From: Isurus oxyrinchus
Taxonomy: Eukaryota
Assembly (NCBI GenBank): GCA_026770705.1
Contig: JANJGN010000021.1
Location: forward strand, 107,756,001-107,820,000
DNA: 64,000 bases
Reading direction: 5' to 3'
The position numbers are program-made. Below, in pieces: positions 21,001 through 64,000 of the stretch (positions are counted from its first letter, which is position 1; every line of letters begins with the position of its first letter).

Positions 21001-24000
21001 AAAGGAATCAAAGCCCTTGCTTGCCGTCCAAGAGAGTTGGAAGGACTGAGTCGTGATGTGAGAGACAGAAACGTCGCCAAGTTTACTTGGCTTCACAGTG
21101 TCTTTAACTGTGGAGGCTGAGAAAGAGAGAAAAAGGAGATGTTTTATTGGATAGCAAGGGTGATCCTAAGGCCAATGTGGCAGGCTCTGGATGGCTACCG
21201 AGTTCCAATCACAGCTCGCGTGTTGAAACAAACGTGGACAGGATCAGGAACTGACACCCAGCTCCTCAAAGAAACACTTGAAAGGAAGCGGCCAAAAGAG
21301 GCTTTGGGACAAACACAGGAACAGGAGCATGCCCAATCAGCACCGGGTCCTGCACAGCCACAGATGACAGCTGACCTCTGCCGAACTCTAACCCAATGAA
21401 AATGTCAATCTCAAATTGACCCGCCATTCCAGCGGAGAGAGTTCCAGGTTTCCATGACCCTTTGGGTAAAAAGATTTGTCCTGTTTCATTCCCGAAAGGC
21501 CTTGCTCACATTTTTAGCATGGCTCCTGGCTCTTGAATCCCCCACCAGTTTCTCTCCATCTATCCTATTAATCTGAACACGCCAATCTAATCTCAAGGGG
21601 TCAAGCCAACATGATCCAAACTTAAGCTGAAGGCAAAACACTGCAGATACTGGAAATCTGAAACAAAAACAAAAAATGCAGGAAAAACAAGTCCATAACA
21701 CGGACTCAAAACGCTGTCAGACCTGCTGAGTTTTCCCAGCATTTTCTATTTATGTTTCATGATCCAAACCTATCCTCATTGCTTACCCCACTAATTGCAG
21801 AAAAGCCCAGAACGTTAAAACAAAATTTGACAATCTGAAGTTGGCCTTCCGCTTTCCTTCTGGTCCTTCAACAGCAGAAAAGGACCTGGATTATCAACAC
21901 AGAGAAAATCGCATTCACTGGGATAAAAAGACAAGTTTCCTGTAGTTCAGAGCAGCAAGCGGATCACGTTTGAAAATCTCTGCTGGAACCCCTGGAGCAC
22001 AACCGGATTCTCCTGAGCACCTCCGATACCCCCTCCACTGAGTGCCCAGGGCTCGACTGCGAAAGACTCATACTGACGGATAGCCCTGTATCTATGGCAA
22101 CAGAGGGGTAAAATATTAAAAGTGATTCCTGATGGACCTGTGCAAGTTAAAAGGAGCACACAGACTGCTGAGTTTGGCCCTGACATGATTTCTTGATTAA
22201 TCTCCCTCATCTCATTGGTCTGCCAGAGAAAAAAATAAGGAAAAGATGTCCTTTTTCGAGGGGAAGAAGCAACAGAAATTCAAAGGTTTCAGTGGAGATA
22301 CCTGAGGTATTGGCGGAAGTGGTCAGTGGCCTAGTGCGTTGGCCACCAGATACCCCATAGAGATGGAGCCTATAGGCGGTGGTAGGCCTCAGGCCTGTGA
22401 TGACGGTGGATCGACGGTCACTGGTTACCGTGAGGGTTCTCACATCCTCAGAGTCCTCGAGCCCGTATTCGATGAGAAAGGAATCATAGGTCCTCTCTGT
22501 TTCCCAGGAGAGTTTGAGGGATTGGGCCGTGACCTTAGACACGGAGAAATTGTCCAGATCCGCCACTTCGATCGGCCTCTGACCCTCTTTATCTGTGGAG
22601 ACTACAATTTAAAATAAAAACAATTATCGTTAATCGGCCGTCTGGCCTGACCTGAGGAGAAAGATTGAGTGAGTTCTGGACAGGAAATTGAGGAAAAGCA
22701 AATCCCAATGAGGAGAGGAAGAGAGAGGAACACTCCTTAACTCATCTGAGATTCTCCCCTCTATCCCAGTGCGGAACTCACTCCAGCATTGACGGAGAAT
22801 TCAGCTGAGAAAAGATGCTCCGAAAGTCAATGGTGCTGCAGGGAATGCAAGATTTAACGAACCTCAAAAGAGGCTGAAGCAGACTCCAAGAGCAACAGCA
22901 ACTTGCATTTATCTAGCTATTCCAACTATTGTTAGAATAGTCAAATATCCCAATGGGCATCACTGGAGCATTTTCAGATGGAATTTAACAGGCAGATACA
23001 TAAAGAGATATCAGAACAGATAATGGAAAGCTTGGCCAAAGAGGTAGAATTTAACAGAGAACAGAGCTAGTTTGAGAGGTTGAAGAATATGGACATTATT
23101 AGTATGAATAGATCAGTTAGAGTCTAGGCACATTCTGAATCGCTTTAGTCTTTGTCACTGAACCAGAGAAACTGTGAAAGACTAACAGGAAACTTCGATA
23201 AACACAACCTAAATAAACCTGTAGGGAAACCATACACCAAAACACCGAGAATTCAATGTCCAGTCTGATTACTTGTAAATCTAAAAGGAGCTTCACTGGT
23301 TTTAGGTGTGTAACTGGGTTTAATAACACCCTGAGATCCAACCCAGCTCAGCCTGTCAGAAATATCCCGATGGGAAATTTTGCGGCTTTACACTGAAACA
23401 TAAGTTCTGTAGGGACCTCACACGTGAGAATCAGAACACAACTTCAACTAAGACACGGACAGTTCACAGGGAATAAACACATCTAGGTCCGAAACCTTCC
23501 TGAAGAAACTCAAGGCACAATGTATTAACAGGAAGGCAGGTTAGAGGATCAAAAAATGATAGATGACAGAGGGAGGACATTCTGCCCATGGTGCCTGTGC
23601 CGGATCTTTGAAAGATCAATCCAATTAGTCCTGCCACGGCAACACTTTCCCCATAACCGAGTTACTTTTTCCCCTTCAAGTATTTATCTGAGTCTCTTTA
23701 CACTTGTTATTGAACCATCTTCCACCATCTCCTCAGTGTTTGTCCAGATTGTTGTGTATTAAATGTTTCCTCATGTTGTTTCTGGTTATTTTGCCAATCC
23801 CCTTCAATCTGTGCCCTCTGGTTACCAACCTTCCTGCCACTGGAAAATGTTTGGAATCCCAGAGTCATGAACATTTACTTCACGGAGAAGGCCTTTTGGC
23901 CCATTATGTTCCTGCAAGGTTAGTTCACCACTGCTACTTCCCCATCCGTTTTTCTGTCGTTCTGCAAATTTGCTCTGCTCAGGTAATTATCCAATTCTCT

Positions 24001-63000: not shown

Positions 63001-64000
63001 GGAATACCGTACAGGATATAGTAAATATTTCACAGGATACCATGGGCCTTGGACAGGAAAATAGAAATACTGGACTGTGTACCGTAATATTGAACAGGAC
63101 TCTCAGGAACATTGGACACTGGGTAATATTAATAACATGATATCAATTTTATATTATAATATATTATGTTAGCCAGTGTAATGGGAAATTTTGAACTGGG
63201 CATCATGAATATTGTCCAGTAGACAAGAAATATTGGTCAGCGCACCAGAAATACTAAGGAATATTAAACTGGACAATGGGGAATACTGGACTGGACACTC
63301 GGGAATATTGGACTGGATTATGGGGAATATCAGAGTGGACTGGGAATATTGGACTGGGCATGGGAATATCAGAGTGGACAGTGGGGAACATTCGACTGCA
63401 GAATGGGAATATTGGACAGGACATTGAGTATATAGGACTGGACACAGGGAATATCGGACAGGACAGTGGGAATATAGGACTGGGCACTTGGAATATTGGA
63501 CTGGACAGTGCAGAAGATTGGAATAGACAGTGGGAATATTGGACTGGACACTCGGAATATTGGACTGGACAGTGGGAATATTGGACTGGATACTGGGGAA
63601 TATCAGAGTGGACAGTGGGGAATATTGTACTGGATACGGGAATATCAGAGTGGACAGCGGGGAACTTTCGACTGCACAGTGGGAATATTGGACAGGACAG
63701 TAGGAATATAGGACTGGACACTGGGAATATTGGACAGGACAGTGGCAATATTGGACTGGACAGTGCAGAACATTGGAATGGACAGTGGGAATATTGGACT
63801 GGACACTGAAATATTGCACTGAATGCTGTGCTGTGATGTCCTGTGGCCGAGATGATTGGTTTCTGTCATTCGGATCAAACAGATCCAACACCTTGTAAGT
63901 TGCAGTTAAAGGGACAAACAAAAAGTTTCTTGCCGATCTGTCACCTTCGAATCGCTTGGGGCTGGGAGACACCCTCACCCTGCCCCCAAGTGCCCACGAC

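What the first reader, a model, noticed from the sequence alone, without database searches (positions are those of the whole stretch)
21950..64000. Young, lineage-specific tandem array of a two-exon FN3 module inside a tenascin-X-like gene
Seen: at least 9 near-identical ~4.6-kb units, each with an A exon (300 bp) and a B exon (282/291 bp), all phase 1-1, with introns still alignable; the array continues past 64000. Known: tenascin-X and tenascin-W have expanded FN3 repeats independently in different lineages. Inference: because every exon is symmetric, unequal crossing-over or exon skipping can change the length of the protein arm without breaking frame. This would make the extracellular-matrix protein length-tunable, and copy number may vary between individuals.
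Basis: partly seen in the sequence, partly recalled or inferred. Interest (0 to 1): 0.75.

Follow-up and report, generated by a model that had tools for sequence, protein, structure and literature searches.

The report
Shark tenascin-X FN3 exon-pair array
A shark's tenascin-X gene carries at least nine tandem copies of a two-exon module, each exon encoding one fibronectin type III domain; the array is real, but it is an ordinary and already described way for this matrix protein to change length.

Summary
The array is real. On the minus strand, 22121-64000 holds nine ~4.3-4.9 kb units. Each has a B exon (282/291 bp) and an A exon (291/300 bp), and each exon encodes one Pfam fn3 domain. The window is the 3' half of a lamnid shark tenascin-X gene: ten downstream exons match Carcharodon carcharias "tenascin-like" at 581/586 residues.

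Three points need correcting. The units are 88-93% identical, not near-identical. Two of 18 exons are defective: B8 has a 4-bp deletion with stops, and A3 has a GT>CT donor. The array is neither young nor private to one lineage. A [B-A]n array sits at the same place in TNX models of Stegostoma, Hemiscyllium, Scyliorhinus, Mustelus and Cetorhinus. A and B are each one clade across those orders, and copies cluster by lineage.

Within the window, paralogues differ as much as they differ from Cetorhinus copies (~92% aa). Exons are under moderate purifying selection (dN/dS 0.3-0.5). The Carcharodon isoforms I could see skip the whole array, while Stegostoma isoforms carry 13, 8 or 7 A/B domains.

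This is concerted or birth-and-death evolution of in-phase FN3 cassette exons, already described for mammalian TNX. It is a new member of a known kind, of low to moderate interest.

The parts
22121..64000 (-). Tandem array of nine [B exon - intron - A exon] units, U1-U9 from low to high coordinates. The gene reads from high to low. The array is cut by the window end.
   Evidence: Self-BLAST; unit alignment and identities.
22302..22592 (-). A1 exon, 291 bp (300 bp to 22601 with the upstream AG), phase 1-1, one FN3. It is the last A/B exon before the constant part.
   Evidence: Pfam fn3 8.5e-12.
25022..25303 (-). B1 exon, 282 bp (291 bp to 25312), phase 1-1, one FN3.
   Evidence: Pfam fn3 1.2e-15.
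27028..27318 (-). A2 exon, 291/300 bp, intact.
29503..29784 (-). B2 exon, 282/291 bp, intact.
31479..31769 (-). A3 exon, open frame, but the donor dinucleotide is CT instead of GT. It is probably not spliceable as an exon.
   Evidence: donor string CTATTTCC against GTAT... in the other eight.
34232..34513 (-). B3 exon, 282 bp. It is the only B without the upstream AG (GAA instead of GAG).
36380..36670 (-). A4 exon, intact.
39109..39390 (-). B4 exon, intact.
40721..41011 (-). A5 exon, intact.
43481..43762 (-). B5 exon, intact.
45350..45640 (-). A6 exon, intact.
48046..48327 (-). B6 exon, intact.
50080..50370 (-). A7 exon, intact.
52834..53115 (-). B7 exon, intact.
54515..54805 (-). A8 exon, intact.
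57366..57643 (-). B8 exon, 278 bp. A 4-bp deletion near the 5' end shifts the frame and gives several stops. It is a dead exon unless skipped.
59353..59643 (-). A9 exon, intact.
62071..62352 (-). B9 exon, intact.
15289..21116 (-). Four further single-exon FN3 modules, all phase 1-1, open and with AG/GT sites: 20826-21116, 19166-19465, 16721-17002, 15289-15588. They are absent from the Carcharodon and Cetorhinus models and present in the catshark and carpet-shark models.
10052..12886 (-). Three constant single-exon FN3 modules: 12587-12886, 11562-11852, 10052-10342. They are 98/99, 96/96 and 96/96 identical to Carcharodon P0028.
1409..7679 (-). Three FN3 domains, each split over two exons: 7557-7679, 6210-6353, 4786-4905, 3530-3673, 3232-3362, 1409-1541.
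1..108 (-). First exon of the fibrinogen-related C-terminal domain; it runs off the window. It aligns to P0028 residues 2782-2816, and Fibrinogen_C starts at residue 2787 of P0028.
   Evidence: Pfam on the 37-aa piece alone gave nothing.
26158..26610 (.). 22-bp minisatellite in the A-to-B intron. Its counterparts are at 30641-31044, 35366-35962, 44658-44919, 49194-49664, 53917-54066 and 63258-63821. It is the main source of unit-length differences.
   Evidence: TRF; gaps in the unit alignment.

Best explanation
The window is the 3' half of the tenascin-X (TNX) gene of a lamnid shark, read on the minus strand. The species is very close to, and perhaps not identical with, the great white shark.

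Positions 22121-64000 hold a tandem array of at least nine two-exon modules. Each exon encodes exactly one FN3 domain and sits in intron phase 1-1. After the array come seven single-exon FN3 modules, three split FN3 domains and the first exon of the fibrinogen globe.

The A and B domain types separated before the galeomorph sharks radiated. A [B-A]n array has sat at this position since then. Copy number and sequence have turned over within lineages by unequal crossing-over between units, including one three-unit (~13.8 kb) block duplication (U3-U5 matching U6-U8), and probably by gene conversion. Purifying selection has kept most copies coding.

The exons act as in-frame cassettes. Including or skipping them changes the length of the FN3 arm between the EGF repeats and the fibrinogen globe without breaking the frame. 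Two copies (A3, B8) have already died and must be skipped.

Shown here: anatomy, domain identity, orthology, the tree, selection and the two defects. Inferred: the recombination mechanism, cassette splicing in this species, and any mechanical consequence.
For: Anatomy and splice sites.

FN3 identity: Pfam fn3 hits in 13 of 14 ORFs submitted. The best PDB sequence match of exon A is Tencon, at 2.6e-15; that Tencon is a consensus of tenascin FN3 domains is recalled, not shown by a call.

Gene identity: ten constant exons are collinear with Carcharodon 'tenascin-like isoform X4' (P0028) at 581/586 identical residues, and with Cetorhinus 'tenascin-X-like' (P0019) at 566/584. P0028 has EGF_Tenascin/EGF_TEN, 19 fn3 stretches and Fibrinogen_C. 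In one search, 92 of 96 hits carry a tenascin name. PMC11401434 (passages and section 27 read) assigns elasmobranch TNX by FReD tree and CYP21/ATF6b synteny. It gives great white TNX as a 225-kb gene on chromosome 19.

Shared position of the array:
- Stegostoma X4: E21k-type, then 13 alternating B/A, then E21k-type and the same constant exons.
- Hemiscyllium: 15 alternating B/A.
- S. torazame: B A B A B A.
- Cetorhinus fragment P0003: B A B A B A.

Tree (77 domains): A clade 99/96 and B clade 100/99 across orders. Within them, Stegostoma A 99/97, Stegostoma B 100/100, Mustelus A 100/96, lamniform B 95/81.

Selection: exons are 94.7% identical against 88.7% for non-exon columns. dN/dS is 0.30 (A) and 0.40 (B), with dS 0.10-0.12, about the same as intron divergence. 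Counting distinct changes gives 48 synonymous against 62 non-synonymous, where 73.7% non-synonymous is expected; binomial p = 6e-5.

Unit subfamilies and mosaicism.

Cassette behaviour: Stegostoma isoforms X4, X14 and X16 carry 13, 8 and 7 A/B domains. Carcharodon X4 and X14 carry none.
Against: No transcript data for this species were available. The only two Carcharodon isoforms retrieved (P0028, P0026) skip the whole array and four further FN3 exons. A search up to 7424 aa found no longer lamnid isoform, so the exons may be rarely used, or unused, in lamnids.

Isoforms named 'X' are, as far as I recall, computational models whose RNA support I could not see.

The tree rests on 96 columns, and 29 of its 70 inner branches are unresolved. 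Window and Cetorhinus copies form a polytomy, so orthologous pairing or independent turnover within Lamniformes is not settled.

Pairwise dN/dS values are not independent of one another.

Exact identity tracts between units are only 56-156 bp, which argues against frequent present-day unequal crossing-over.
Confidence: 0.78

Rival explanations
1. Silent relic. In lamnids the A/B array, and the four FN3 exons after it, are no longer used. The array lies inside one very long intron and is decaying.
For: Carcharodon isoforms X4 and X14 jump from FN3 domains not encoded in the window straight to the exon at 12587-12886. The Cetorhinus model P0019 keeps only one A and one B. Two of 18 exons are broken. 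No lamnid isoform longer than 3005 aa was found in the 2333-7424 aa range.
Against: Sixteen of 18 exons keep open frames and canonical AG/GT sites at a neutral divergence of about 0.11. dN/dS is 0.3-0.5 with p = 6e-5. The Cetorhinus fragment model P0003 contains B-A-B-A-B-A. Orthologous arrays are included in models of five other sharks. The selection signal may, however, predate a recent loss of use.
Confidence: 0.15
2. One reading: a young expansion private to this lineage, still exchanging freely, so copy number varies between individuals.
For: Copies cluster by lineage in the domain tree. The three Cetorhinus P0003 A copies are 100% or nearly identical to each other, so recent duplication does occur in a related lineage or its assembly. 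The exons are symmetric.
Against: In this window the closest units are 92.9% identical. No 600-column window exceeds 95%. Terminal branches are 0.03-0.08 substitutions per site. Window paralogues are as diverged as window versus Cetorhinus copies, about eight times the 0.9% aa difference from Carcharodon in the constant exons. The array position is shared by three shark orders.
Confidence: 0.1
3. Assembly artefact: a smaller array falsely expanded.
For: None found. Tandem arrays are generally error-prone in assemblies.
Against: The window has no N. Every unit differs from every other by 7-12%, and units carry their own indels of 40-450 columns. Unit-specific defects are present.
Confidence: 0.02

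Closest known systems
Concerted evolution of FN3 exons and introns in mammalian tenascin-X (Hughes 1999, Mol Biol Evol 16:1558). Seen only as reference 42 and one sentence in PMC1578592; the paper itself is not held.
   Same: Same gene family member. Repeated exon-plus-intron units each encode one FN3, and paralogues within a lineage resemble each other more than copies in other lineages do.
   Different: Here the repeat unit is a pair of two distinct FN3 types (46.7% aa identity). The pair is conserved as such across shark orders, with a three-unit higher-order block. The details of the mammalian case are recalled, not read.
Elasmobranch TNX as described in 'The evolution of tenascins' (PMC11401434; passages and section 27 read).
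   Same: The same gene. The paper assigns it by FReD phylogeny, finds it next to CYP21 and near ATF6b, and names the great white shark locus. It states that TNX has the most variable FN3 number and that single-exon FN3 domains favour number changes and alternative splicing.
   Different: The paper gives domain counts (27 in whale shark, at most 33 in S. canicula). In the parts I read it does not describe the A/B exon-pair array, its intron homology, the dead exons or lineage clustering. Its Supplementary Table S1 could not be opened.
RefSeq TNX-like models of Stegostoma tigrinum (P0009, P0011, P0013) and Hemiscyllium ocellatum (P0102).
   Same: Alternating B-A FN3 arrays at the orthologous position, followed by the same seven constant FN3 types.
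   Different: They are 66-75% identical to the window's A/B. Copy numbers differ: 13, 8 and 7 in three Stegostoma isoforms and 15 in Hemiscyllium. The array ends with B there and with A in the window.
Alternatively spliced FN3 cassette of tenascin-C (domains A1-D). Recalled; PMC11401434's Background mentions alternative splicing of single-exon FN3 domains.
   Same: Single-exon, phase-symmetric FN3 modules between constant FN3 domains, whose inclusion sets arm length.
   Different: A different paralogue. In TNC the cassette domains are individually distinct and conserved between species, not a homogenised tandem array. Splicing is not shown here.
Tenascin-W duplications of the third FN3 domain (PMC1578592, passages read).
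   Same: Lineage-dependent copy number of one FN3 type (1 to 9 copies).
   Different: That case duplicates a single domain type rather than a two-type module, and it is a different paralogue, which PMC11401434 indicates elasmobranchs lack.

Membership tests
Tenascin family / tenascin-X | Tandem FN3 domains of the tenascin type | tested here: met
   Pfam fn3 for A, B and 11 further ORFs (13 of 14 submitted). The best PDB sequence match of exon A is Tencon; for exon B it is a fibronectin fragment, with Tencon fourth.
Tenascin family / tenascin-X | Single C-terminal fibrinogen-related domain | tested here: inconclusive
   Only its first exon (1-108) lies in the window. It is 34/35 identical to P0028 residues 2782-2816, where Fibrinogen_C starts at 2787. 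Pfam on the piece alone finds nothing.
Tenascin family / tenascin-X | N-terminal assembly region and tenascin-type EGF repeats | not testable with these tools
   These lie outside the window. They are present in the near-identical Carcharodon protein P0028 (EGF_TEN, EGF_Tenascin).
Tenascin family / tenascin-X | FReD groups with TNX rather than TNC or TNR | not tested
   Taken from PMC11401434 (Fig. 5B as described in its text). My searches had length floors that exclude TNC, TNR and TNW, so the run of TNX names is not a test.
Tenascin family / tenascin-X | Neighbourhood of CYP21, C4 and ATF6b | not testable with these tools
   The 64 kb window lies wholly inside the gene. PMC11401434 reports CYP21 adjacent in every elasmobranch examined and ATF6b on the same great white chromosome.
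Concertedly evolving exon-intron repeat array | The repeat unit includes introns as well as exons | tested here: met
   Non-exon columns are 86.5-92.8% identical among the nine units.
Concertedly evolving exon-intron repeat array | Copies within a lineage are closer to each other than to copies of other lineages | tested here: met
   At the level of orders and families this holds: Stegostoma, Mustelus, Scyliorhinus and lamniform clades. Between the window and Cetorhinus it is unresolved.
Concertedly evolving exon-intron repeat array | Recent homogenisation (near-identical copies) | tested here: not met
   In this window the maximum is 92.9% for whole units and 95% locally.
In-frame alternatively spliced FN3 cassette | One domain per exon, with the same phase at both ends | tested here: met
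   17 of 18 A/B exons and all 7 following single-exon FN3 modules are phase 1-1.
In-frame alternatively spliced FN3 cassette | Transcripts that include and exclude the exons | not testable with these tools
   Only predicted isoforms are available. Stegostoma isoforms carry 13, 8 or 7 A/B domains, and Carcharodon X4 and X14 carry none.

The most novel reading that the evidence does not exclude
The B-A FN3 pair is a functional two-domain unit that galeomorph sharks have kept as a homogenised, alternatively spliced cassette array for the whole history of the group. Lamnids have expanded it to nine or more pairs organised in a three-pair higher-order repeat. Current lamnid annotation misses it, so the real protein may carry over 20 more FN3 domains than annotated, with tissue-specific arm length tuned by how many pairs are spliced in.
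Probability: 0.12. Interest if true: 0.5.

Novelty: new member of a known kind. Interest (0 to 1): 0.3.

Why it matters
The finding shows that the lamnid TNX gene holds at least 22 FN3 exons (18 A/B plus 4) that the Carcharodon and Cetorhinus protein models I could see leave out wholly or mostly. Published FN3 counts for shark TNX are therefore lower bounds.

It gives a clean, datable example of a two-domain repeat unit kept at one position across shark orders while its copies turn over.

It does not open a new question. Variable FN3 number, single-exon symmetric FN3 modules, concerted evolution in TNX and splicing-based length variation in tenascins are all in print.

Tried and rejected
Assembly artefact: rejected, because units differ by 7-12% and carry their own indels.

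Exon-targeted gene conversion as the reason exons are more alike than introns: rejected, because dS (0.10-0.12) equals intron divergence. Purifying selection is enough to explain it.

Rescue of A3 by a nearby donor: reading the sequence printed, the next GT is out of phase and the in-frame read-through meets a stop after seven codons.

A search for lamnid isoforms that include the array, over 2333-7424 aa, found none. Proteins outside those lengths were not searched.

The listing of cluster members for the Carcharodon and Cetorhinus clusters could not be made because the database was off. The other 12 members of the P0028 cluster therefore stayed unseen.

Hughes 1999 is not held.

A literature search for a lamniform divergence date gave nothing I used, so I give no absolute age. 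Only relative dating is reported.

Pfam on the repeated transposon-like ORFs in the B-to-A intron: no hit at E <= 1e-5. Rfam: 0 hits.

No structure prediction, complex prediction, atlas search or representative search was run, because the Pfam and PDB sequence matches were sufficient.

Searches found no paper describing this A/B array in sharks. Subscription journals and supplements are outside that search.

No orthologous shark DNA could therefore be compared.
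Full report
**What is in the sequence.**
The window has no N. A self-comparison shows that 22121-64000 is a tandem array whose copies match at offsets that are multiples of about 4.6 kb. The coding strand is the minus strand.

Stop-to-stop ORFs and splice-site inspection give nine A exons and nine B exons in strict alternation. In gene order, from high to low coordinates, they run B9 A9 B8 A8 ... B1 A1.
- The A exon is 291 bp from the acceptor CACAG|AT, or 300 bp from a second AG nine bases upstream.
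- The B exon is 282 bp, or 291 bp with the upstream AG.
- Both acceptors are in phase 1, and the donors leave one base.

The units measure 4341-4901 bp. The B-to-A intron is 2184-2560 bp. The A-to-B intron is 1330-1866 bp. Most of that variation comes from a 22-bp minisatellite. Both exon types are full-length Pfam fn3 domains, with E-values of 8.5e-12 and 1.2e-15. A and B are 46.7% identical to each other.

**Corrections to the observation.**
- The units are not near-identical. Whole-unit identity is 87.9-92.9%. Non-exon columns average 88.7% and exons 94.7%. No 600-column window exceeds 95%. The longest exact tracts shared by two units are 56-156 bp.
- Not all exons are sound. B8 (57366-57643) has lost four bases, is 278 bp long and reads into stops. 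A3 (31479-31769) has CT in place of the GT donor, and I saw no in-frame rescue in the printed sequence. So 16 of 18 exons are intact.
- The window ends inside the A-to-B intron of unit 9, about 250 alignment columns short of where an A exon would lie. Continuation is therefore implied but not seen.

**Which gene.**
All searches with window sequence were made exon by exon. I built and searched no joined model.

The A exon alone retrieved 5 proteins among 435 candidates. The best by identity was a Cetorhinus maximus 'tenascin-X-like' fragment with the order B-A-B-A-B-A. A search with a region of a catshark reference protein returned 96 proteins, 92 of them named tenascin-X, tenascin-X-like, tenascin-like or Tenascin XB. 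The length floor of 2331 aa excludes TNC, TNR and TNW, so this is not a test between paralogues.

Downstream of the array the window holds:
- seven more single-exon FN3 modules, all phase 1-1;
- three FN3 domains split over two exons each;
- the first exon of the fibrinogen-related domain.

Ten of these exons are collinear with Carcharodon carcharias 'tenascin-like isoform X4' at 581/586 identical residues, and with Cetorhinus P0019 at 566/584. That Carcharodon protein has tenascin-type EGF repeats, 19 fn3 stretches and Fibrinogen_C at 2787-2996. The window is therefore a lamnid shark very close to the great white, and not human.

PMC11401434 (passages and section 27 read) states that elasmobranchs have TNC, TNR and TNX. 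It says the assignments are supported by a FReD tree, that CYP21 is adjacent to TNX in every elasmobranch genome examined, and that great white TNX spans about 225 kb on chromosome 19 near ATF6b. P0028's contig of 115.8 Mb is compatible with that position. The accession link is in a supplement I could not open.

**Not private to one lineage.**
I cut the FN3 domains out of 20 chondrichthyan models and typed each by its best match to the window's exons.
- Stegostoma X4 reads E21k-type, then 13 alternating B/A domains, then E21k-type, E16.7k, E15.2k, E12.9k, E11.8k and E10.3k.
- Hemiscyllium has 15 alternating B/A domains at the same place, in a 6830-aa model with 58 FN3 by my HMM.
- S. torazame has B A B A B A.
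- S. canicula has B A A B A.
- Mustelus has A B A A A A A.
- Squalomorph and batoid models have other expanded types, about 55% identical to the window's.

In a tree of 77 domains, A (99/96) and B (100/99) are each one clade across Orectolobiformes, Carcharhiniformes and Lamniformes. Within them, copies group by lineage: Stegostoma A 99/97, Stegostoma B 100/100, Mustelus A 100/96, lamniform B 95/81. The two domain types and their alternating array are thus old, while the copies have been renewed within lineages. The tree has only 96 columns, and 29 of its 70 inner branches are unresolved. Window and Cetorhinus copies form a polytomy.

**Not young.**
- Intron trees give terminal branches of 0.03-0.08 substitutions per site.
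- dS among exon copies is 0.10-0.12.
- Window paralogues are 92.3% (A) and 92.1% (B) identical in protein. Window versus Cetorhinus copies are 91.8% and 92.6%.
- The constant exons differ from Carcharodon by 0.9% and from Cetorhinus by 3.1%.

The duplications seen in the window are therefore at least of the order of the split between lamnids and the basking shark lineage. I give no absolute date. One search gave no usable calibration and I had no orthologous DNA.

**Internal structure.**
The closest relatives of a unit are not its neighbours.
- U3, U4 and U5 pair with U6, U7 and U8 at 92.4%, 92.9% and 91.4%. The BLAST offsets are 13.7-13.9 kb. This indicates one three-unit block duplication.
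- U2 belongs with U4 and U7.
- The two introns give partly different groupings, and nearest neighbours change along the unit. This is the mosaic expected from unequal exchange or conversion.

**Selection.**
Exon copies have dN/dS of 0.30 (A) and 0.40 (B). Counting each distinct variant once gives 48 synonymous and 62 non-synonymous changes, where 73.7% non-synonymous would be expected; p = 6e-5. Because dS equals intron divergence, the higher exon identity is explained by purifying selection alone.

**Use of the exons.**
The two Carcharodon isoforms retrieved go from FN3 domains not encoded in the window straight to the exon at 12587-12886. They skip all 18 A/B exons and four intact FN3 exons. 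Cetorhinus P0019 keeps one A and one B. No longer lamnid isoform appeared up to 7424 aa, and the cluster members could not be listed. Stegostoma isoforms X4, X14 and X16 carry 13, 8 and 7 A/B domains. These are predicted models, and their RNA support is unknown to me.

**Verdict.**
This is a real, well-described instance of something already known for tenascins. Single-exon, phase-symmetric FN3 modules multiply, homogenise and drop out, and they can be spliced in or out (PMC11401434 Background; PMC1578592 citing Hughes 1999). The new points are the two-type module kept across shark orders, the three-unit block, the two dead exons, and the gap between the genomic exon content and the current lamnid protein models.

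Noticed in passing
26158-26610, 30641-31044, 35366-35962, 44658-44919, 49194-49664, 53917-54066, 63258-63821: A 22-bp minisatellite with about 2 to 27 copies sits in the A-to-B intron of most units. The long ORFs through it in several frames (up to 276 aa) are repeat artefacts, not exons.
   Followed up: partly
15289-21116: Four intact phase 1-1 FN3 exons (20826-21116, 19166-19465, 16721-17002, 15289-15588) are missing from the Carcharodon and Cetorhinus models. They are present in the Scyliorhinus and Hemiscyllium models and in part in the Stegostoma and Mustelus models.
   Followed up: partly
e.g. 26753-26938, 31192-31383, 45087-45254: The first 64 residues of the Cetorhinus fragment model P0003 map at 67-81% identity to the intron just downstream of each A exon. 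This is probably a spurious first exon in that model, created because the array was split off as its own gene.
   Followed up: no
57836-58277: A 241-bp tandem duplication (1.8 copies, 88% identity) lies in the A-to-B intron of unit 8, the same unit whose B exon is frameshifted.
   Followed up: no
acceptors of A, B and the seven following FN3 exons: Nearly every single-exon FN3 has two AG acceptors, both in phase 1: 9 nt apart in most, 18 nt apart at 10052-10342, and only one at 16721-17002. The Carcharodon model uses the upstream one at 12886, 11852 and 10342. B3 lacks the upstream AG.
   Followed up: partly
P0102 (Hemiscyllium ocellatum, not in the window): This RefSeq TNX-like model is 6830 aa with 58 FN3 by my HMM. 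That is well above the maximum of 33 FN3 given for TNX in PMC11401434.
   Followed up: partly
24091-24399, 42551-42982, 56435-56866, 61144-61623 and counterparts: An ORF-like fragment recurs in the B-to-A intron of the units, so it was inserted before the units multiplied. It has no Pfam hit at E <= 1e-5. From memory it resembles a shark retroelement tail; this was not tested.
   Followed up: partly
5782-5937, 8568-8763, 9313-9479, 13367-14024, 14356-14656, 18300-18727: Further intronic tandem repeats have periods of 33, 37 and 25 bp. The two 25-bp arrays are related to each other.
   Followed up: no
whole window: Rfam at gathering thresholds finds nothing on either strand.
   Followed up: yes
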